Below, piece after piece: positions 3,584 to 45,638 of a stretch of 64,000 nucleotides of DNA (positions are counted from its first letter, which is position 1; every line of letters starts with the position of its first letter). A program made the translations under genes and the position numbers. The stretch covers positions 303,157 to 367,156 of the forward strand of contig DYGI01000001.1 in NCBI GenBank assembly GCA_020724805.1, in the 5' to 3' direction. Origin of the DNA: Candidatus Microgenomatus sp. (lineage in GTDB: Bacteria; Patescibacteriota; Minisyncoccia; UBA6257; GWB1-50-10). The notes below the pieces were generated by a model. The model was not told the DNA's origin and ran no database searches. It worked only from the letters and a program-made list of their open reading frames with translations.

Positions 3584-5331
3584 TGACGGGGAGCGACATT
3601 CGAAAAAAATTCCTGGATTATTTCAAAGAGAACGGCCACACGGTGGTGCGTTCTTCATCGCTTGTGCCGGACGACCCTTCGGTGCTTTTGACCACTGCGG
3701 GGATGCAGCAGTTCAAGCGGTACTATACCGGGGAGCTTGATGCGATGAAGGATTTCGGCGCGAAGAGCACCGCATCGGTGCAGAAGAGTTTTCGCACTTC
3801 CGACATTGACGAAGTGGGAGATGAGTCGCACCTCACATTCTTTGAAATGCTCGGGAATTTCTCGTTTGGCGGCTATTTCAAGGAAGAGGCAATCAAGTAC
3901 GGATATGAGTTCATCACGAAGGTGATGGGTCTCCCGATAGATTATGTTTCGGTGTTTGATCCCGAGCAGGTACGCGAGGGAGATTGGCGCAAGGGGGTGC
4001 CGCGCGACGACGAATCGCGCGCCATTTGGGAGAAGATTGGTGTGAAGGATATTCGCGCGGAGGGCGTGGATGTCTTTTGGGGTCCTACCGGGAGCGAAGG
4101 CCCGTGTGGCCCTACCACCGAGATTTATGTGAAGAGTGCCGAGGGAAAGAGCTTGGAGGTGTGGAACATCGTGTTCAACGAATTCTATCGTGATCCGGCG
4201 ATGAAACTGACAAAGCTCAAAACGCCGGGAGTAGACACGGGGATGGGACTCGAGCGTCTCGCGATGGTATCGCAGCGGACGCCAACCATCTTCGAGACGG
4301 ATCTGTTTGCGCCGCTCATGAAGCTTTTACCGGGGAATCTTTCCGAGCGTACGCGGCGCATTCTCGCCGACCACGTGCGCGGCATCGCATTCCTTCTTTC
4401 CGATGGGGTACGCCCGTCGAACAAAGAAGCGGGATACGTGCTTCGGCGCTTGATGCGCCGCTTGGTGACCCACCTCCATTTGGCAGGGAACCCCGTGGAC
4501 CCCGCGCATCTTTTTGCCGAGGTGAACGAGCACTACGAAAAATTCTATCCGGAGCTCAATGCCGAGATAATATTGGAGGAATGGAATGCCGAGCGCGCAC
4601 GATTTGAAAAAACGCTTTCGGTGGGACTCCGTGAGCTTTCGAAGATCGATTCGCTGGATGCGAAGGGCGCGTTCATGCTTTTTGAAAGCTGCGGGCTCCC
4701 GTACGAGGTCCTGAAAGAATTGGGCGGTACAAAAGCGTCGAAACTTGCGCGCGAGGAGTTTGATAAAGAGTTCGAAAAGCATCAGGAAATATCTCGCGCC
4801 GGTGCGGTGAAGAAATTCGGTGGTCATGGACTGATTTTGGACACGGGCGAGTTGAAGGCGGGGAGTGAAGAAGAGCTCAAAAAAGTAACGCGGCTCCACA
4901 CCGCAACTCACCTTCTTCAGCGTGCGCTTCGCGAAGTGCTGGGGTCTGAGGTCTCACAGAGAGGGTCCGATATCACACCCGAGCGCACTCGTTTTGACTT
5001 TTCGTTCCCGCGGAAAGTGGAGAAAGAGGAATTGCGACAGGTGGAGGAGTTGGTGAACGAAAAAATAAAAGAGGACCTCCCCGTGCAATTCAAGGAGATG
5101 CCGAAGGAAGAAGCGGAAAAGACCGGCGCGCTCTATTTCTTCAAGGAAAAATACCCCGATCGCGTGAAGGTCTACTTCGTGGGGCGCTCTCTTGAGAACG
5201 CATGGAGCAAAGAATTCTGTGGGGGTCCGCACGTCACCCATACGGGTGAGATCGGACGTGTGAAGATAGCAAAAGAAGAGGCGGTTGGCGCCGGTGTTCG
5301 CCGCATTCGCGCGACACTTGAAGCGGCATAA
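3583..5331 (+). CDS. alaS: Alanyl-tRNA synthetase, short form lacking the C-terminal C-Ala domain
   Basis: N-terminus [14 protein letters not shown]...TAGMQQFK and editing-domain HTATHLLQ motif; only 582 aa against roughly 870 in the typical enzyme. Confidence 0.85.
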   Translation: MTGSDIRKKFLDYFKENGHTVVRSSSLVPDDPSVLLTTAGMQQFKRYYTGELDAMKDFGAKSTASVQKSFRTSDIDEVGDESHLTFFEMLGNFSFGGYFKEEAIKYGYEFITKVMGLPIDYVSVFDPEQVREGDWRKGVPRDDESRAIWEKIGVKDIRAEGVDVFWGPTGSEGPCGPTTEIYVKSAEGKSLEVWNIVFNEFYRDPAMKLTKLKTPGVDTGMGLERLAMVSQRTPTIFETDLFAPLMKLLPGNLSERTRRILADHVRGIAFLLSDGVRPSNKEAGYVLRRLMRRLVTHLHLAGNPVDPAHLFAEVNEHYEKFYPELNAEIILEEWNAERARFEKTLSVGLRELSKIDSLDAKGAFMLFESCGLPYEVLKELGGTKASKLAREEFDKEFEKHQEISRAGAVKKFGGHGLILDTGELKAGSEEELKKVTRLHTATHLLQRALREVLGSEVSQRGSDITPERTRFDFSFPRKVEKEELRQVEELVNEKIKEDLPVQFKEMPKEEAEKTGALYFFKEKYPDRVKVYFVGRSLENAWSKEFCGGPHVTHTGEIGRVKIAKEEAVGAGVRRIRATLEAA

Positions 5332-24470: not shown

Positions 24471-25157
24471 ATGGGACAAAAAGTAAAACCAAACGCATAT
24501 CGCATCGGTATCACGCTTCCGTGGCAGAACCGATGGTTCTACAAGAAAGGCCTCAGATATTTCTTCGAGGAGGATTTCCGCATCCGCGAATACCTGCGCT
24601 CCAAGGTGCTTCAGGCTGGTATCGCATCCATTGAGATAGAACGTACCTCGGCGGCGCTCCGCGTTTCCATCCGCGCGGGACGGCCCGGACTCATCATCGG
24701 TCGCGGCGGCAAGGGAATCGAAGATTTGAGGAACGGACTTGTGGCGGAGATAAAGAAGTGGCGCCGTGAAGCAAAGGTGGCGGCACAGGTCGTGGTGAAT
24801 TTGAACATCGAAGAATTGAAGCGCTCGGAAGTATCCGCAGCCGCAACCGCGCAGCAGGTGGCGTTTGATATCGAGAAGCGTCTCCCATATCGCCGTGCAA
24901 TGAAGCGTACTCTCGAACTTCTCATGCAGAACCGCGACGTACTCGGCGCAAAAATCCGCCTCTCGGGTCGGCTGAATGGTGCCGAAATTTCGCGGAACGA
25001 CTGGCTCGCGAAGGGGCGCATGCCGCTCCAAACGCTTCGGGCGAACGTGGATTACGGCGAAGCAACCTCGTTCAACACCTACGGCACGGTGGGCGTGAAG
25101 GTGTGGATCTACAAAGGCGACATCTTTGATAATGAAAAAGGAAAAATGCAAAAATGA
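24471..25157 (+). CDS. rpsC: 30S ribosomal protein S3
   Basis: MGQKVKPNAYRIGI...GRGGKGIE (KH domain). Confidence 0.95.
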   Translation: MGQKVKPNAYRIGITLPWQNRWFYKKGLRYFFEEDFRIREYLRSKVLQAGIASIEIERTSAALRVSIRAGRPGLIIGRGGKGIEDLRNGLVAEIKKWRREAKVAAQVVVNLNIEELKRSEVSAAATAQQVAFDIEKRLPYRRAMKRTLELLMQNRDVLGAKIRLSGRLNGAEISRNDWLAKGRMPLQTLRANVDYGEATSFNTYGTVGVKVWIYKGDIFDNEKGKMQK

Positions 25158-25196
25158 AAATTTTCCATTTTGATTTTTCCATTTTAATTTAACGTT

Positions 25197-25610: not shown

Positions 25611-25618
25611 TCATATGA

Positions 25619-25739
25619 ATCCCGTTAGAAACAACTAAATTCTACAATCATGATTTACCGAAACAACAGCACAATATCTAGCACAAAGGTCTCGTGGCTC
25701 AACCACGGTCGTCTTGAGACGACCTGTCTCTAACGGGAT
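25619..25739. repeat. Palindromic structured leader element, copy A (121 bp; termini ATCCCGTTAGAAA...TCTCTAACGGGAT)
   Basis: Inverted termini shared with 34808..34883 and 45004..45079; two internal hairpins (cgtgg/ccacg and ggtcgtc/gacgacc); the right terminus overlaps the rpmC ATG. Confidence 0.8.
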
Positions 25740-25950
25740 GAAAAAGAAAGACCTCGCCAATCGCAAAGGAAAGAATGAAGCGGAGCTCACCAAAGAGATC
25801 CGCGAGCTTGAGAGTCGTAAAGAGGCTCTCCAGTTTGACTTGGCGGCGGGCAAAGTGAAGAATATACGCGAAATTCGGGACGTGAAAAAAAGCGTCGCAC
25901 AACTTCGAACGCTCCTCGGCGAGCGTGGTCGCCTAACGCCTAACACCTAA
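25738..25950 (+). CDS. rpmC: 50S ribosomal protein L29
   Basis: ELTKEIRELESRKEALQFDLAAGKVKN. Confidence 0.85.
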   Translation: MKKKDLANRKGKNEAELTKEIRELESRKEALQFDLAAGKVKNIREIRDVKKSVAQLRTLLGERGRLTPNT

Positions 25951-32662: not shown

Positions 32663-34809
32663 TTATGCGGATTATGATTCGCGCACGCTTTATTACTGCA
32701 CCGTTCGGGGATGGTCTTCGTGCCTTCCATCATTAAAGCGCCGCAAAGCGTACAGATATTTCCGGTGGGGCGGGATTTCATGATGAACTTACATTTCGGA
32801 TAATTGTTGCAGCTGAAGAACGGACCGAAGCGACCGCGGCGCTCTACGAGTTCACCGCCGTCCAAAAGACACTTCACGCCGGTGCCGTTCGCGCCATTCT
32901 CGCTCTGCTTTACGTATTTACACTTCGGATAGTTCGAGCACGCGATGAAGAGGCCAAAACGTCCCTCGCGCTCGATAAGCTTGCCGTCCTTACAGTCAGG
33001 GCACGCTTCCCCGATTTCTTTCGGCGGTTCCATGATGCTCCCGTCGGCTTTGCGCGCGCCGAGGCACTCGGGGAATCGCTTGCAGCTCAAAAATTTACCC
33101 GCGCGCCCGAGCTTTACCACCATCGGTCCTCCGCAAAGCGGACAGGTGTGCGCGGCGTCCGCCTCGCCCAAAGTGGTCGCTTTTTCGATTTTTTCCTTTG
33201 ATTTCACGTCTTTTTTGAAGGGCCCATAAAAATCCTTCAAGGTTTTCACATAGTCGCGTTTTCCGTTCGCGATCTCATCAAGGTCGTTTTCCATCTCCGC
33301 GGTGAAGGAGTCGCTGATGTAGTTCGGGAAATGGGTTTCCAAAAATCCAGAGACTACCTCACCGGTGTCGGTGGGCTTCAGGGATTTGCCGAGTTTTTCC
33401 ACATATCCGCGCTTCTGGAGCGTGGAGATGATGGAGGCATAAGTGGAAGGGCGGCCTATCTCACGCTTTTCAAGCTCCTTAATGAGCCCCGCTTCGGTGT
33501 AGCGTGGCGGAGGCTCTGTCTGTTTTTCCTCTTCGTGCATCTCTTTCAAAGTAAGAGGCTCGCCTTTCGTAACCTCGGGAAGTTCCACATCCTCACCGCG
33601 TGCGCGGGGGTCGGCGGCGAGCCATCCGGGAAATTGCACGATAGTTCCGGTCACGGAGAAGTCGGGAATTTTGGAATCCGCGATATTGGCCGTCACGGTA
33701 TTCCGGAGGAGTTTTGCGTCCGCCATCTGCGATGCGAGCGTACGTTCGCGTATCAAGGCATAGAGCTTCTTTTGTTCATCGTTTGCGCCGGCGCTTTTTT
33801 TCCGCGCATCCGTGGGCCGGATGGCCTCGTGGGCCTCCTGCGCGCTCTTGGAGCGTGTTATATAGGTGTGCGGTGAGACATATTGTTTTCCAAACTCTTT
33901 TTCAATCGTTCCGTATATCACGGGGAGCGCCTCGCGGCTCAAATTCACACTGTCGGTGCGCATGTAGGTAATGAGCCCCTGTTCGTAGAGTTTTTGGGCG
34001 ATGGACATCGTACGGTAGGGGGCGAACCCGAGGCGCGAGCTTGCGGATTGTTGGAGCGTGGAGGTGATGAAGGGCGGGCGCGCCGCGCGCTTTACCTCGG
34101 TTTGTTTCACGGCCGTGATTTTCCAAGAACCGGTCTTCGCGGCGCGGAGAATTTCATCGGCTTCCGCCCGATCACGCGGTTCTTTCGTGCACGTGAGTAC
34201 TATCGCTTTCTTCTTTTTGGTCAAAAATTCGCCGGAAATGACCCAGAACGTTTCTGGGACGAATGCCTGTATCTCACGCTCGCGCTCCACGAGAATGCGG
34301 AGCGAGGGGGATTGCACGCGGCCCGCGGAGAGCCCATAGCGCACTTTTTTCCATATGAGACCCGAAAGGTCGTAGCCGAAAAGCCGATCAAGTACTCTGC
34401 GCGCTTCCTGTGCTTTCACGAGGTGAGGGTCTACCGCGCGGGGATGTTCCATTGCTTCGCGCACGGCGGGTTCGGTGATTTCGTGGAAGACCACGCGTTT
34501 CGCTTTTGTGCCCGGATTCAAGAGTTCCATAATGTGCCAGGCAATAGCCTCGCCTTCGCGGTCGGGGTCGGTGGCAAGATAGACCGTGTCCGCTTTCTTC
34601 GCCAGCCTTGCGAGTTCTTTCACCACGTCGTCCTTGCCTTTCACTACCTCATAGTGGGGGACGAAACCGGCGGCGACATCTATCGCCGCCTTGTTGCTTT
34701 TAGGGAGGTCGCGCACGTGACCGACGCTCGCCTTGATGGTGAACGCCTTGTCTAAATACTTTGATATGGTTTTGGCCTTGGTTGGCGATTCGACAATGAC
34801 GAGATTCAT
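32650..34809 (-). CDS. topA: DNA topoisomerase I with four C-terminal zinc ribbons
   Basis: Toprim MNLVIVESPTKAKT, active-site region, repeated CxxC..CxxC ribbons. The start is taken at MNLVIV; the longer ORF reads through the palindromic element. Confidence 0.9.
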   Translation of the reverse strand: MNLVIVESPTKAKTISKYLDKAFTIKASVGHVRDLPKSNKAAIDVAAGFVPHYEVVKGKDDVVKELARLAKKADTVYLATDPDREGEAIAWHIMELLNPGTKAKRVVFHEITEPAVREAMEHPRAVDPHLVKAQEARRVLDRLFGYDLSGLIWKKVRYGLSAGRVQSPSLRILVEREREIQAFVPETFWVISGEFLTKKKKAIVLTCTKEPRDRAEADEILRAAKTGSWKITAVKQTEVKRAARPPFITSTLQQSASSRLGFAPYRTMSIAQKLYEQGLITYMRTDSVNLSREALPVIYGTIEKEFGKQYVSPHTYITRSKSAQEAHEAIRPTDARKKSAGANDEQKKLYALIRERTLASQMADAKLLRNTVTANIADSKIPDFSVTGTIVQFPGWLAADPRARGEDVELPEVTKGEPLTLKEMHEEEKQTEPPPRYTEAGLIKELEKREIGRPSTYASIISTLQKRGYVEKLGKSLKPTDTGEVVSGFLETHFPNYISDSFTAEMENDLDEIANGKRDYVKTLKDFYGPFKKDVKSKEKIEKATTLGEADAAHTCPLCGGPMVVKLGRAGKFLSCKRFPECLGARKADGSIMEPPKEIGEACPDCKDGKLIEREGRFGLFIACSNYPKCKYVKQSENGANGTGVKCLLDGGELVERRGRFGPFFSCNNYPKCKFIMKSRPTGNICTLCGALMMEGTKTIPERCSNKACANHNPHKIKK

Positions 34810-34883
34810 CCCGTTAGAAATCGCGCTCGCGGCAGAGCCGCGAGTCCCTCTGGGACCGCTGGCGCGGCTATTTCTAACGGGAT
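34808..34883. repeat. Palindromic structured leader element, copy B (76 bp; ATCCCGTTAGAAAT...ATTTCTAACGGGAT)
   Basis: Perfect 14-bp inverted termini; internal hairpins ctcgcgg/ccgcgag and gtccc/gggac; it exactly fills the dprA-stop to topA-start gap and overlaps the topA ATG. Confidence 0.85.
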
Positions 34884-35744
34884 TCATAAAATGGTGAATT
34901 TTCCTTTCGTTTCGCGCACGGCACCATCCAACGTGAGCTCGGTGAGTCGCGCAAGAACGATATTTGGTTCAAGTGTAGTGGCTTCCGCGATGGTGTCAAC
35001 GGAAAGCGGTTCTGTGGACGTCGCGAGCACCATGAGGATGGGGTCGTGGCTCGGAACGCGGGAAGTGGGCGTGTCCGCCATGACACGTGCGAGCACGGGG
35101 AGGTCTTCCATGAGGTCTGCCGCGTTCCTGATGAGGCGGGCTCCTTCGCGAATCAACATATGTGAGCCTTCGTAGTGAGGATGGCCAGCGGGGCCGGGAA
35201 GCACAAAGACCTCGCGTCCCTGGTCTGCCGCGTGGCGCGCGGTGGCCAAAGCGCCGGACGCAATGGGCGCTTCCACGATAACTACCCCGTCCGAAAGGCC
35301 AGAAATGATGCGATTTCTCTCAAGGAACTGATTCGGGTATGCGGGTGTGCCCGGAGGATATTCGGAAACGAGCGCACCGCGCTCTTCAATGCGACGTCCG
35401 AGGGATTCGTGCGAAGGAGGATAGATGGTGTCGATGCCACACCCAAGGACCGCAACGGTTTTTCCGTGCGCGTCCAAAGCTCCCTCGTGCGCTGCGGCGT
35501 CGATGCCGAGCGCGAGGCCAGAGACGATAACAATGCCGTGCCCCGCAAGGGTACGCGCAAGCATGCGCGCCATCTCGCGCCCTTCCCGGGTCGCTTTTCT
35601 GGTTCCTACTATGGCGATGGCAGGGATATGTTCGTGCGGGAGCGCGCCGCGTACAAAAAGTTGCGCCGGAGCGCCGGGAAGAGGCGCAAAACGCGCAGGA
35701 TACGAAGGATCTTTCCGTATGAGCGTGTGAATATGCGGCGCCAT
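34884..35744 (-). CDS. dprA: DNA processing protein A (Smf)
   Basis: Rossmann-like DprA core (GTRKATREG...GIDAAAH...GGTVAVLG); conserved smf-topA pairing. Confidence 0.8.
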   Translation of the reverse strand: MAPHIHTLIRKDPSYPARFAPLPGAPAQLFVRGALPHEHIPAIAIVGTRKATREGREMARMLARTLAGHGIVIVSGLALGIDAAAHEGALDAHGKTVAVLGCGIDTIYPPSHESLGRRIEERGALVSEYPPGTPAYPNQFLERNRIISGLSDGVVIVEAPIASGALATARHAADQGREVFVLPGPAGHPHYEGSHMLIREGARLIRNAADLMEDLPVLARVMADTPTSRVPSHDPILMVLATSTEPLSVDTIAEATTLEPNIVLARLTELTLDGAVRETKGKFTIL

Positions 35745-44935: not shown

Positions 44936-45003
44936 CGCTCATTCGTCGCAAACCAGCGGCTCCGCACGCGGAGCCGTTTTAGGTTATGATGGAAAAGCAA
45001 TGG

Positions 45004-45079
45004 ACCCCGTTAGAAATCGCGCTCACGACGAAGTCGCGAGTCCTTCAAGGACCGCTGGCGCGGCTATTTCTAACGGGGT
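45004..45079. repeat. Palindromic structured leader element, copy C (76 bp; ACCCCGTTAGAAAT...ATTTCTAACGGGGT)
   Basis: Same architecture as copies A and B, with compensatory substitutions in both internal hairpins; the right terminus overlaps the GTG start of the ECF sigma gene. Confidence 0.85.
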
Positions 45080-45638
45080 GGAAGTAAGCGCCCTTGTTCG
45101 TGCTTTCAAGAAGGGAGACCGCAATGCGTTCGGCGGTATTTACGATGAGTATGCGGAGCGTATCTACCGCTTCTTTTTTTCGCGTACCGCAAACAAGGAA
45201 CTTTCCGAGGACCTCACGAGCGACACGTTTCGTAAAGCGCTTGAGCACCTCGCGGATTATAAGGAGGGGAAGGGAAGTCTTACCTCGTGGCTCTACACCA
45301 TCGCGCGCAATACGCTCACAGACCATTGGCGCACCGCGAAGGGAGATGCGCCGCTCGACGAAGCGCTTGAACTCGGGGCCTCCATTGATATGGCGGGCCA
45401 CGCGGACGCGAAAGAGCAATTGGCGAAAGTGAAAGCGTATCTCACAAAGCTTTCTGCGGACGAGCGTCAGGTGGTGCTCCTGCGGGTATGGGACGAGCTT
45501 TCCTACGCGGAAATCGCGGAAACCATGGGACGCACTGAGGGGTCGGCGAAGATGCTTTTCTCGCGCACGGTCCAGAAAATGAGGCGCGACCTTCCCTTTG
45601 CGGCCGTTATGCTTTTCCTCATCAATCGTATTCATTAA
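45078..45638 (+). CDS. ECF-type sigma-70 family factor (GTG start)
   Basis: Region 2 (IYDEYAERIYRFF...DLTSDTF) and region 4 HTH (LSYAEIAETMGRTEGSAKMLFSR). Confidence 0.8.
   Translation: MEVSALVRAFKKGDRNAFGGIYDEYAERIYRFFFSRTANKELSEDLTSDTFRKALEHLADYKEGKGSLTSWLYTIARNTLTDHWRTAKGDAPLDEALELGASIDMAGHADAKEQLAKVKAYLTKLSADERQVVLLRVWDELSYAEIAETMGRTEGSAKMLFSRTVQKMRRDLPFAAVMLFLINRIH

What the first reader, a model, noticed from the sequence alone, without database searches (positions are those of the whole stretch)
25619..25739. Family of structured palindromic leader elements whose terminus supplies the start codon of the downstream gene (copy A, rplP-rpmC junction)
Three elements (25619..25739, 34808..34883 and 45004..45079) share near-identical 13-14-bp inverted termini, (A/C)(T/C)CCCGTTAGAAA(T)...ATTTCTAACGGG(A/G)T, enclosing two internal hairpins. 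Between copies B and C both hairpins carry compensatory base changes (ctcgcgg/ccgcgag versus ctcacgac/gtcgcgag, and gtccc/gggac versus gtcc/ggac). That argues for selection on secondary structure rather than on primary sequence. Copy A has the same termini and a two-hairpin 3' half, plus an extra AT-rich insert of about 60 nt. In all three copies the distal terminus overlaps the initiation codon of the next gene (ACGGGATG for rpmC, ACGGGGTG for the ECF sigma gene, and on the minus strand ACGGGATG for topA). The A and U of the start codon therefore lie at the base of a perfect 14-bp stem. Each element sits in a transcribed position: inside the ribosomal operon, between dprA and topA, and in the sigma leader. 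The architecture suggests an RNA-level device, either start-codon sequestration for translational control or a long perfect stem serving as an RNase III-type processing site that would yield near-leaderless downstream mRNAs. I do not recognise it as a described element.
Basis: seen in the sequence. Interest (0 to 1): 0.8.

Follow-up and report, generated by a model that had tools for sequence, protein, structure and literature searches.

The report
Mini-transposon that regenerates start codons
The three "leader hairpins" are copies of a tiny non-coding jumping element (a MITE) found in more than 100 uncultivated bacterial species, and its insertion duplicates four bases so that its own last base rebuilds the start codon of the gene it lands on.

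Summary
Three elements with near-identical 13-14 bp inverted termini abut the start codons of rpmC, topA and an ECF sigma gene.

The RNA-device interpretation is secondary. Each copy is bounded by YCCCGTTAGAAA...TTTCTAACGGGR and by an exact 4-bp direct repeat (TGAA, TTCA, TGGA). A public-genome scan found at least 120 more loci in Patescibacteria, Planctomycetota, Deltaproteobacteria, Omnitrophota and other phyla. They share these termini but have unrelated interiors. Of 120 copies, 71 have an exact 4-bp target-site duplication (8 expected, P~1e-51), mostly T-N-N-A. Relatives have an unoccupied rplP-rpmC junction.

[quoted passage not shown] When the target is A|TGAA or A|TGGA, the duplication plus the terminal purine rebuilds ATG or GTG. 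B and C lie in opposite orientation to their genes, which argues against a sequence-specific RNA.

Some features are unusual. 36% of copies sit exactly on start codons (control at most 5.5%). Eight of ten TTGA copies sit on -35 boxes. An ORF from the retained upstream start reaches the rebuilt start twice as often as expected; B and C each add 26 in-frame codons. No transposase was found.

Verdict: a new, undescribed MITE family of moderate interest.

The parts
25620..25738 (.). Copy A of the element (119 bp, T...A outer pair). It lies between the rplP stop and the rpmC start, with 13-bp imperfect terminal inverted repeats.
   Evidence: The same insertion is present in JGI contig Ga0246236_1000004.
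25616..25619 (+). Left copy of target-site duplication TGAA of copy A. With A25615 it preserves the original rpmC ATG (25615-25617), which now opens a 7-codon uORF (ATG AAT CCC GTT AGA AAC AAC TAA) covering the 5' arm.
25739..25742 (+). Right copy of TSD TGAA of copy A. Terminal A25738 plus TG gives the rebuilt rpmC start codon (25738-25740).
   Evidence: Ribosomal_L29.
34809..34882 (.). Copy B (74 bp, T...A outer pair) at the dprA-topA junction. The interior has an outer 5-bp stem enclosing two hairpins.
34805..34808 (-). TSD copy (TTCA on +, TGAA on -) next to topA. T34809 (A on the minus strand) plus this repeat gives the rebuilt topA ATG (34809-34807, minus).
34883..34886 (-). Second TSD copy of B. 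It contains the dprA stop TGA (34886-34884, minus), which overlaps the original topA ATG (34887-34885, minus) as ATGA. From this ATG the element is read in frame and without stops as 26 extra codons (MNPVRNSRASGPRGTRGSAASAISNG-MNLV...).
   Evidence: Gene callers in all 4 public assemblies use this 745-aa form.
45005..45078 (.). Copy C (74 bp, C...G outer pair) in front of the ECF sigma gene. It has the same interior as B (8 differences), on the same strand.
45001..45004 (+). Left TSD copy TGGA of C. With A45000 it preserves the original ATG (45000-45002). From there the element is read in frame and open as 26 codons (MDPVRNRAHDEVASPSRTAGAAISNG-VEVS...).
45079..45082 (+). Right TSD copy TGGA of C. 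Terminal G45078 plus TG gives the rebuilt GTG start of the sigma gene (45078-45080).
   Evidence: Sigma70_r2, r4, ECF.

Best explanation
[quoted passage not shown] This is a non-coding DNA transposon of 27 to about 190 bp, defined only by its 13-bp terminal inverted repeats YCCCGTTAGAAA(T)...(A)TTTCTAACGGGR. A transposase supplied in trans (not identified) moves it, and insertion duplicates a 4-bp target, usually T-N-N-A.

Shown:
- Termini, target-site duplication, dispersal across genomes and phyla, near-identical sister copies within genomes, and an unoccupied orthologous site for copy A.
- When the target is the TGAA or TGGA that overlaps a start codon (A|TGAA), the upstream repeat keeps the original ATG with its native initiation context. 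The downstream repeat plus the element's terminal purine rebuilds ATG (T..A type) or GTG (C..G type), so the gene stays intact. This is why 'the terminus supplies the start codon'.

Inferred:
- In very compact genomes, insertions that regenerate the signal they split (start codon, stop codon, -35 hexamer TTGA|CA) are the ones that survive. This explains the strong concentration at those sites.
- In the mRNA the terminal repeats form a 13-14 bp stem with the rebuilt start at its base. Ribosomes starting at the retained upstream start enter the 5' arm in a fixed open frame (AAY CCC GUU AGA AAN) and melt the stem.
- Depending on element length, those ribosomes then do one of three things: continue in frame (B and C, giving a 26-residue N-terminal extension of TopA and the sigma factor), stop at the UAA built into the 3' terminus 4 nt before the start, or stop at UGA overlapping the AUG. 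In A they translate a 7-codon uORF that covers the 5' arm and would unmask the rpmC start.
For: 1. Distribution. The pattern CCCGTTAGAAA-N40-70-TTTCTAACGGG hit at least 120 loci in the species-representative genome collection, where about 1 is expected by chance. Hits come from Patescibacteria, Planctomycetota, Deltaproteobacteria/Thermodesulfobacteriota, Omnitrophota, Nitrospirae, Elusimicrobia, KSB1, WOR-3 and others.
2. Termini. The outer pair is complementary Y..R in 111 of 120 copies.
3. Target-site duplication. An exact 4-bp direct repeat lies immediately outside Y..R in 71 of 120 copies, against 8 expected from permuted flanks (P = 1e-51). The repeat works only in the 4-bp register. The repeats are TTTA/TAAA, TGAA/TTCA, TTGA/TCAA and TGGA/TCCA. 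All three window copies have it.
4. Interiors. They share no similarity between genomes but are near-identical within a genome: B and C; four 92-bp copies in MAG DX4.bin27; L022/L060; L026/L071; L091/L100; L116a/b.
5. Minimal forms. Copies of 27 bp made only of the two termini also carry duplications.
6. Empty site. In relatives with 55-69% identical L16, the rplP-rpmC junction is stop + 0-8 nt + ATGAAA with no element. This matches the window sequence after excision (caaTAAtcatATGAAaaag).
7. Origin of the first base. The original start is ATG while the rebuilt one is GTG in C and 8 other C..G-type copies, so that base comes from the element.
8. Orientation. B and C are in opposite orientation relative to their genes.
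9. Position. 52 of 143 copies abut the start codon of an ORF of at least 60 codons, against 5.5% of random TNNA sites (P = 7e-29). Stop-codon adjacency is 13% against 2.8%. Eight of ten TTGA-duplication copies sit on the -35 hexamer of TTGACA-N16-17-TATAAT-like promoters.
10. Translation through the element. The ORF from the retained upstream start reaches the rebuilt start in 20 of 41 copies against 10.7 expected (P = 0.0016). Insertion size is a multiple of 3 in 75 of 163 copies (P = 5e-4) and in 18 of 23 GC-rich copies.
Against: - No autonomous element or recurrent neighbouring transposase gene was found in about 1 Mb of flanking sequence around the genomic copies, nor in a further about 0.8 Mb of viral-contig loci. 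Mobilisation in trans is therefore inferred from the footprints only.
- No presence/absence polymorphism was seen among the 4 assemblies of this organism. The empty-site evidence rests on distant relatives and only on copy A.
- 49 of 120 copies lack an exact duplication.
- Conservation of an identical 11-13 bp terminus across more than 10 phyla is unusually broad for a MITE. MAG taxon labels could be wrong in some cases.
- Several features go beyond a passive MITE and suggest RNA- or translation-level selection that I cannot separate from survivorship. These are: recurring pairs of perfect internal hairpins with unrelated sequences; two compensated pairs between B and C; and a strict orientation bias of an internal sequence complementary to the 5' terminus, 21 sense against 0 antisense.
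Confidence: 0.85

Rival explanations
1. A selected cis-regulatory RNA leader. Here the long stem exists to sequester the start codon or to be cut by RNase III, and the element is maintained for gene control rather than being a transposon.
For: - The start codon lies at the base of a perfect stem in all three copies.
- B and C differ by two compensated stem pairs.
- 20% of interiors are unusually well folded, against 7% of controls, and an architecture of two perfect hairpins recurs with unrelated sequences.
- In 21 of 55 start-associated copies an internal RRYGGGR complementary to the 5' terminus (G.U allowed) occurs only in the mRNA sense, with 0 antisense and 2.1 expected. This would give an alternative pairing that frees the start codon.
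- An SD-like sequence lies just inside the gene-proximal terminus in 14 copies, against 3 in the opposite sense.
- The best Rfam resemblance is a cis-regulatory motif with the same architecture (closing stem, two hairpins, then SD): RF02953.
Against: - The target-site duplications, unrelated interiors and 27-bp minimal copies are transposon hallmarks.
- The stem sequence is invariant across phyla instead of covarying.
- B and C are reverse complements with respect to their genes.
- A, B and C lack the internal anti-terminus and any SD.
- Only 36% of copies are at start codons. Others sit at stops, -35 boxes or elsewhere.
- The RF02953 score is 23.5 bits against a gathering score of 42, and no family member passes.
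Confidence: 0.1
2. A repetitive extragenic palindrome of the REP/REPIN type. These are spread by a RAYT (Y1/HUH) transposase acting on single-stranded hairpins.
For: The elements are short palindromic, multi-copy and mostly extragenic. Some occur as pairs or clusters, as in L066, L105 and L241.
Against: - REP/REPIN and IS200/IS605-type elements do not make target-site duplications (established knowledge). Here an exact 4-bp duplication is present in 59% of copies.
- No recurrent neighbouring gene was found.
- REP sequences are typically lineage-specific, whereas these termini are identical across phyla.
Confidence: 0.03
3. A protein-binding or recombination site rather than a mobile element. 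Candidates are an integron attC-like site, a Xer/dif-like core site, an invertible-promoter inverted repeat, or an operator.
For: - GTTAGAA and TTCTAAC resemble the attC core motifs GTTRRRY and RYYYAAC.
- The 27-bp minimal forms (11-bp arms plus a 5-bp spacer) have the geometry of a tyrosine-recombinase core site.
- Many host phyla are integron-rich. This is a lead from memory, not a test.
Against: - The order of the boxes is reversed relative to attC. Here GTTAGAA is 5' and TTCTAAC is 3', whereas attC is 5'-RYYYAAC...GTTRRRY-3' (read).
- Copies are dispersed singly at unrelated genes, not in arrays.
- Flanking 4-bp duplications are not produced by these recombinases.
- No integrase or recombinase recurs nearby.
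- Arms 40-70 bp apart are too close for inversion.
Confidence: 0.02

Closest known systems
Correia repeat-enclosed elements (CREE/NEMIS) of Neisseria
   Same: Both are small non-coding elements with terminal inverted repeats and target-site duplications. They have many copies, predominantly just upstream of genes, and are co-transcribed. In Correia the repeat stem is an RNase III substrate and the elements can supply promoters (review PMC10969869, read). This is the best functional analogue for what a repeat stem in a leader does.
   Different: The terminal sequences are unrelated (26 bp in Correia). Correia has a TA duplication rather than the 4-bp T-N-N-A seen here, is 100-155 bp long and is restricted to one genus. 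Correia is not reported to rebuild start codons. Neither RNase III cleavage nor promoter activity was testable here, and no promoter or terminator was called inside A, B or C.
Rickettsia palindromic elements (RPE)
   Same: These are palindromic MITE-like repeats tolerated inside reading frames because they insert in frame and are translated (PMC10969869). B and C are likewise in frame and stop-free from the retained start (26 codons). Insertion sizes are biased towards multiples of 3.
   Different: RPEs are about 100-150 bp, lie in the interior of ORFs and are confined to Rickettsia. These elements sit at the very first codon, and most copies are not in frame.
piggyBac / IS1380-type DDE transposons (lead from memory, not a test)
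   Same: Both have a 4-bp duplication of a T..A tetranucleotide (TTAA for piggyBac) and termini beginning CC(C). The piggyBac end CCCTAGAAAG resembles CCCGTTAGAAA. The IS1380 family is listed with 4-5 bp duplications and CC ends.
   Different: No transposase of any family was found with these termini. The target here is T-N-N-A and rarely TTAA. The similarity of 6-9 bases could be chance.
Rfam RF02953, DUF1874 RNA motif
   Same: It is the only Rfam model that aligns end to end with copy B. It has a closing stem beginning CCC and ending GGG, two internal hairpins, and a position immediately before a gene start.
   Different: The score is 23.5 bits against a gathering score of 42. The stem sequence is different, and none of 18 family loci reaches threshold. 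This is a resemblance of architecture only.
ERIC/IRU, RUP and BOX repeats of enterobacteria and pneumococci
   Same: These are small imperfect palindromes in transcribed intergenic regions that alter mRNA stability or translation (PMC10969869).
   Different: The sequences are unrelated, the elements are lineage-restricted, and there is no start-codon regeneration. A blastn search of plasmids with copy B found nothing.

Membership tests
MITE (non-autonomous TIR transposon) | Small size and no coding capacity | tested here: met
   Copies are 74-119 bp in the window and 24-189 bp in other genomes.
MITE (non-autonomous TIR transposon) | Terminal inverted repeats shared by all copies | tested here: met
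   YCCCGTTAGAAA/TTTCTAACGGGR is present in the 3 window copies and at least 120 other loci. The outer pair is complementary in 111 of 120.
MITE (non-autonomous TIR transposon) | Target-site duplication of fixed length flanking each copy | tested here: met
   An exact 4-bp direct repeat is present in 71 of 120 copies against 8 expected (P = 1e-51), and only in the 4-bp register. All three window copies have it.
MITE (non-autonomous TIR transposon) | Several dispersed, near-identical copies within one genome | tested here: met
   B and C have 40 of 48 interior positions identical at unrelated loci. There are four identical 92-bp copies in MAG DX4.bin27, and other sister pairs exist.
MITE (non-autonomous TIR transposon) | Unoccupied orthologous sites | tested here: met
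   For copy A only. The rplP-rpmC junction of 7 relatives (55-69% L16 identity) is stop + 0-8 nt + ATGAAA, equal to the excised window site. No polymorphism was seen among the 4 assemblies of the same organism. No usable orthologous junction was found for B.
MITE (non-autonomous TIR transposon) | Cognate autonomous element with the same termini that encodes a transposase | tested here: inconclusive
   None was found in about 1 Mb of flanks of the genomic copies, in about 0.8 Mb of viral-contig loci, or in the window. No recurrent neighbouring protein family was seen. Whole genomes could not be scanned.
Structured cis-regulatory RNA (Rfam RF02953 DUF1874 motif or a new family) | Score at or above the curated threshold | tested here: not met
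   The score is 23.5 bits against a gathering score of 42 for copy B. There was no hit at threshold in the window or in 18 family loci.
Structured cis-regulatory RNA (Rfam RF02953 DUF1874 motif or a new family) | Fixed orientation relative to the regulated gene | tested here: not met
   B and C are the same strand of the same sequence but precede genes on opposite strands. However, a subset of other copies shows a 21:0 orientation bias of an internal anti-terminus.
Structured cis-regulatory RNA (Rfam RF02953 DUF1874 motif or a new family) | Covariation supporting the structure | tested here: inconclusive
   Between B and C there are two compensated pairs and one broken pair (P 0.002-0.03 by simulation, n = 2 sequences). 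The long stem does not covary at all; it is invariant.
Correia elements (Neisseria) | Correia 26-bp terminal repeats and TA duplication | tested here: not met
   The termini differ and the duplication is 4 bp. The Correia features are taken from PMC10969869 and general knowledge.
Correia elements (Neisseria) | RNase III cleavage of the repeat stem in transcripts | not testable with these tools
   This needs end mapping or in-vitro cleavage.
Rickettsia palindromic elements | In-frame, translated insertion in ORFs | tested here: inconclusive
   B and C are in frame and open (26 codons). Seven of 41 start-associated copies are in frame and open. 75 of 163 insertion sizes are multiples of 3. Translation itself was not testable.
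REP/REPIN (RAYT-mobilised) | No target duplication, plus an associated RAYT gene | tested here: not met
   A 4-bp duplication is present and no recurrent neighbouring gene was found.
Integron attC site | 5'-RYYYAAC ... GTTRRRY-3' order of core sites, in arrays next to cassettes | tested here: not met
   The order is reversed (GTTAGAA at the 5' end, TTCTAAC at the 3' end) and the copies are solitary.
piggyBac/IS1380-derived MITE | 4-bp T..A duplication, CC(C) ends, and a transposase of that family with the same ends | tested here: inconclusive
   The duplication and ends fit, but no transposase was found. The family traits are recalled from memory.

The most novel reading that the evidence does not exclude
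The family is not merely tolerated at gene starts but is adapted to them, or is targeted to initiation landmarks.

- It may integrate preferentially at promoter and initiation landmarks: -35 TTGA|CA, and +1 A|TGAA of leaderless or translationally coupled genes.
- Its termini may have evolved to be 'translationally transparent'. The entry frame PVRN is open, the exit frame ISNG-M is in frame, a UAA lies 4 nt before the rebuilt start, and an AUGA overlap can form.
- Many copies also carry an oriented internal decoy for the 5' arm and a Shine-Dalgarno sequence.

If so, this is a mobile, self-accommodating 5' leader that has spread horizontally across more than 10 bacterial phyla, including the CPR. 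It could rewire translation initiation wherever it lands.
Probability: 0.2. Interest if true: 0.8.

Novelty: new member of a known kind. Interest (0 to 1): 0.5.

Why it matters
- It removes a false lead. The element is not a new riboregulator class but a transposon footprint.
- It defines a previously undescribed MITE family. No literature hit was found for the terminus, there is no Rfam family, and the element is absent from a MITE review.
- The family is shared by ultra-small CPR bacteria and by Planctomycetota, Deltaproteobacteria, Omnitrophota and others. That makes it a marker of horizontal exchange among groundwater and sediment lineages.
- It shows how a transposon can persist in genomes with almost no intergenic space, by rebuilding the start codon, stop codon or -35 box that it splits.
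- It affects annotation. In this genome TopA and an ECF sigma factor are called with 26 element-encoded N-terminal residues, and rpmC has been moved 123 nt away from rplP.
- If the translational features are adaptive, the family offers natural experiments on leaderless or coupled initiation and on hairpin unmasking in organisms that cannot be cultured.

Tried and rejected
1. Rfam. Nothing was found at gathering thresholds in the window (tRNAs only) or in 18 family loci. A permissive scan gave only a sub-threshold structural match to RF02953.
2. attC idea. Rejected because the core boxes are in the reverse order.
3. Search for the autonomous parent. I looked for pairs of termini 150-6000 bp apart with matching flanks, for solo ends, and clustered all ORFs of at least 150 aa from 120 loci to find a recurrent neighbour (the largest cluster covers 6 of 121 sources). 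None was found.
   - A 3.1-kb pair in viral contigs L256/L277 encloses phage replication genes and has a poor right end, so it is chance.
   - The L008 2.6-kb pair is chance.
   - The two inverted 92-bp copies around a 686-aa gene in L009 are nested in a 325-bp inverted duplication and are not an IS.
4. Viral contigs. The single-end pattern gave 90 hits, which my own rough estimate puts at about chance level. Only about 8 are true small copies.
5. Plasmids. blastn with copy B gave nothing relevant.
6. Literature. A full-text search for the 10-mers of the terminus returned only primers. Searches for MITEs in CPR and for MITEs at start codons gave no description of this family.
7. Strain-level empty sites. 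All 4 assemblies carrying this L16 and this TopA have copies A and B. The 719-aa TopA without the extension is not on record. Extending the genome 10 kb on each side gave no further copies.
8. Orthologous dprA-topA junctions in relatives are organised differently, so there is no empty site for B.
9. Promoter and terminator scans of A, B and C found nothing inside the elements.
10. Hypothesis that all start-associated copies are translated in frame: rejected. The frame distribution is 25/18/16, and the commonest size (76 bp) is out of frame.
Full report
**1. What is in the window**

- The exact 12-mer CCCGTTAGAAAT occurs on both strands at the ends of B (34810, 34870) and C (45006, 45066). One- and two-mismatch versions occur at the ends of A (25621, 25726).
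- Nothing else in the 64 kb resembles them (inverted-repeat scan).
- Each folds much better than shuffled sequence, equally on both strands (z = -5.1 to -5.7).
- The neighbouring genes are as stated: L16 then L29, DprA then topoisomerase I on the minus strand, and an ECF-type sigma factor.
- The outermost base of each element is the first base of the downstream start codon: A25738-TG, G45078-TG, and on the minus strand A(34809)-TG.

These are TGAA/TGAA for A, TTCA/TTCA for B (TGAA on the gene strand) and TGGA/TGGA for C. Because of this repeat, the original start codon is still present on the far side of each element, at 25615-17, 34887-85 (minus) and 45000-02. At B that upstream ATG still overlaps the dprA stop as ATGA.

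**2. The family outside the window**

A scan of one genome per species (GTDB representatives) used CCCGTTAGAAA-N40-70-TTTCTAACGGG.
- By record title the hosts are many Patescibacteria lineages, including Kaiserbacteria, whose TopA is 59% identical to the window's. Other hosts are Pirellulales, Phycisphaerae, Sedimentisphaerales and anammox Planctomycetota, Deltaproteobacteria/Thermodesulfobacteriota/Syntrophaceae, Omnitrophota, Nitrospirae, Elusimicrobia, KSB1, WOR-3, Stahlbacteria and some MAGs labelled Gammaproteobacteria.
- Interiors are unrelated between genomes. Within a genome they are near-identical at different loci: B/C here; four 92-bp copies in DX4.bin27; L022/L060; L026/L071; L091/L100; L116a/b.
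- With relaxed matching, sizes run from 24-29 bp (termini plus a few bases) to about 190 bp. Modes are at 27, 63-66, 76-78 and 92 bp, but the original scan only captured 62-92 bp, so the upper modes partly reflect the search window.

**3. Transposon hallmarks**

- The base outside CCCG and the base outside CGGG are complementary (C..G 71, T..A 40 of 120). The inverted repeat is therefore 13 bp including this pair.
- Immediately outside it, the four flanking bases are identical on both sides in 71 of 120 copies. Permuted flanks give 6.7%, or 8 expected (P = 1e-51). The identity holds only in the 4-bp register.
- The duplicated tetranucleotides are TTTA/TAAA (23), TGAA/TTCA (20), TTGA/TCAA, TGGA/TCCA and a few others, which is essentially T-N-N-A.
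- Even the 27-bp minimal copies carry duplications.
- Excising element A plus one repeat gives caaTAAtcatATGAAaaag. That is the layout found at the rplP-rpmC junction of seven relatives: stop, 0-8 nt, ATGAAA.
[quoted passage not shown] The one missing item is the autonomous partner, which I could not find in the sequence I could reach.

**4. Why the terminus 'supplies' the start codon**

- If the target is the TGAA or TGGA that follows the A of a start codon, duplication leaves ATGAA|Y on one side and R|TGAA on the other.
- With R = A the start is rebuilt as ATG. With R = G it is rebuilt as GTG.
- In C and eight other C..G-type copies the upstream codon is ATG while the rebuilt one is GTG. This shows directly that the first base comes from the element.

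**5. Against a dedicated RNA device**

- The long stem is invariant in sequence across phyla rather than covarying.
- The interiors are unrelated.
- B and C are the same strand of the same sequence yet precede genes on opposite strands, so the two 'leaders' are reverse complements.
- No Rfam family reaches threshold. The best permissive hit, RF02953 (DUF1874 motif), shares only the architecture (closing stem, two hairpins, then the gene start) at 23.5 bits against a gathering score of 42.
- No promoter- or terminator-like site is called inside A, B or C.

**6. What is nevertheless unusual**

(a) Position.
- 52 of 143 copies abut the start codon of an ORF of at least 60 codons, against 5.5% of random TNNA sites in the same loci (P = 7e-29).
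- 13% against 2.8% have the duplication on a stop codon.
- Eight of ten TTGA-duplication copies lie exactly on the -35 hexamer of TTGACA-N16-17-TATAAT-like promoters, so the right-hand copy keeps the promoter intact.
- By eye, roughly a third of start-associated sites have a -10-like hexamer 6-8 nt before the original ATG, which suggests leaderless genes (list; not tested statistically).
- I interpret this mainly as survivorship in genomes with almost no spacer DNA: insertions persist where the duplication regenerates the signal that was split. Active targeting of initiation landmarks cannot be excluded.

(b) Reading frames.
- The duplication fixes the frame in which a ribosome starting at the retained upstream start enters the element: AAY CCC GUU AGA AAN, which is always open.
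- At the exit there are three cases. The in-frame reading is UCU AAC GGG RUG. One shifted frame meets the UAA inside the terminus, 4 nt before the rebuilt start. The other gives UGA overlapping AUG when the duplication is TGAA.
- The upstream ORF reaches the rebuilt start in 20 of 41 cases against 10.7 expected from shuffled interiors (P = 0.0016). Seven are in frame (including B and C, 26 codons each), ten end at the terminal UAA and three at the AUGA overlap.
- Insertion size is a multiple of three in 75 of 163 non-redundant copies (P = 5e-4) and in 18 of 23 with GC-rich interiors. Copies within subfamilies are not independent, so these P values are optimistic.

(c) Orientation.
- In 21 of 55 start-associated copies the interior holds RRYGGGR, the complement of the 5' terminus with G.U allowed. 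It is always in the mRNA sense, never antisense (2.1 expected), and is usually 7-16 nt from the 5' arm.
- SD-like sequences lie just inside the gene-proximal terminus in 14 copies, against 3 in the opposite sense.
- These could be decoys and ribosome-binding sites that keep the rebuilt start usable. A, B and C have neither.

(d) Structure.
- 20% of interiors fold with z < -2, against 7% of nearby control segments.
- A 60-69 bp class has two adjacent perfect 7-8 bp hairpins whose sequences differ completely between genomes.
- B and C differ by two compensated pairs.
- Hairpins therefore seem to be maintained, but the data cannot tell DNA-level constraint from RNA-level constraint.

**7. Most likely working of the three window copies (inferred)**

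- B: ribosomes terminating on dprA reinitiate at the overlapping upstream ATG, as before the insertion. They read 26 element-encoded codons (MNPVRNSRASGPRGTRGSAASAISNG) and continue into TopA. All four public assemblies call this 745-aa form, and the 719-aa form is not on record.
- C: initiation at ATG 45000, which keeps the native upstream context, gives MDPVRNRAHDEVASPSRTAGAAISNG fused to the sigma factor. Initiation at the rebuilt GTG is the alternative.
- A: the original ATG, 4 nt after the rplP stop, now opens a 7-codon uORF that covers the whole 5' arm. Its translation would free the 3' arm and the rpmC AUG, which has no SD. This is coupling by unmasking, as known for ribosomal-protein operons such as rpmI-rplT (recalled from memory, not checked here).
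- RNase III cleavage of the repeat stem, as shown for Correia elements (PMC10969869), is possible in all three.

**8. Comparison and novelty**

- The closest analogues are Correia elements (repeat stems in leaders, RNase III, promoters) and Rickettsia palindromic elements (in-frame translated insertions). Both differ in sequence, duplication, size and host range.
- The 4-bp T..A duplication and the CCC...TAGAAA ends recall piggyBac/IS1380-type transposons. That is a lead from memory without a transposase to support it.
- REP/REPIN, attC and recombinase-site readings fail on the duplication, box order and lack of associated genes.
- No paper holds the terminus sequence.
- The finding is therefore a new family of a known kind of element, with an unusually wide host range and a neat way of surviving at gene starts.

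**Caveats**

- Taxon labels are those of the MAG records.
- ORF-based 'gene starts' are not curated.
- Statistics treat copies as independent.
- Only 8-kb windows around hits were available.
- All functional statements about RNA and translation are inferences.

Noticed in passing
L017, L023, L027, L033, L049, L107, L116 (two copies); Copies with the duplication TTGA sit exactly on the -35 hexamer of consensus-like promoters (TTGACA-N16-17-TATAAT/TACAAT/TATGAT). The right-hand repeat rebuilds TTGACA, in the same way that start codons are rebuilt.
   Followed up: partly
Start-associated copies in L005, L034, L050, L051, L053, L068, L083, L092, L111 and others (20-nt upstream strings): Many original start codons have a -10-like hexamer ending 6-8 nt upstream, which suggests leaderless genes. 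The insertion would turn a leaderless mRNA into one with a structured leader of about 80 nt that begins with a leaderless mini-ORF. This was counted by eye only, with no statistical control.
   Followed up: no
L066 2082-2154, L105 5896-5967, L025, L061, L070, L260 3963-3989: There are minimal 27-29 bp copies made of just the two termini and a 1-5 nt loop. Several have their own 4-bp duplications, and some sit in tandem clusters. This implies that the 13-bp ends alone suffice for mobilisation.
   Followed up: partly
L128 about 4405-4530 and L123 about 4410-4490 (rplP-rpmC junction of other CPR genomes): The same junction carries unrelated insertions in other lineages. L128 has a different palindromic element with 20-bp inverted ends (gtaatcgcgaatatacgaat...attcgtatattcgcgattac). 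This junction may be a recurrent landing site for small elements.
   Followed up: no
L009 2046-2369 and 4832-5155: A 325-bp inverted duplication (89-95% complementary across its three segments) flanks a gene for a 686-aa putatively secreted protein. Each arm contains a nested 92-bp copy of the element, and the same 'empty site' sequence recurs in L014. This may be a larger repeat or a composite unit.
   Followed up: partly
window 34805-34885 (-): Rfam RF02953 (DUF1874 motif) aligns end to end below threshold. Its consensus (stem CCCcgccc.../...gggcggGGG, two hairpins, then GGAGGA) has the same architecture as these elements. It may be worth asking whether that motif is itself MITE-derived.
   Followed up: no
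L221 10175-10215, L262 377-417, L225/L236, L241 4734-4776 and 9059-9116 (IMG/VR contigs): A few true copies occur on contigs classified as viral. Nearly all sit at gene starts (duplication TTCA) and have GGAG directly inside the gene-proximal terminus. L241 uses a variant terminus, CCCGTTAGATA.
   Followed up: partly
all non-redundant copies: The inserted length (element plus duplication) is a multiple of 3 in 46% of copies overall and in 78% of copies with GC-rich interiors. This resembles the frame-preserving behaviour of Rickettsia palindromic elements.
   Followed up: partly
window 25136-25185: An AT-rich imperfect palindrome (29-nt arms, 79% complementary) lies at the rpsC-rplP junction and is unrelated to the element family.
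   Followed up: no
L027 3154-3454: A group I intron (Rfam RF00028, 57.8 bits) lies in a Parcubacteria contig that also carries two copies of the element.
   Followed up: no
L292/L293 and L294/L295: Other assemblies encode proteins identical to the queried window proteins but differ locally in gene content: NCBI GCA_020725245.1 and Logan SRR5011275. For example, an extra 76-aa DUF5652 gene lies before the HhH-GPD gene in L295. These closely related strains could be used for presence/absence tests.
   Followed up: partly
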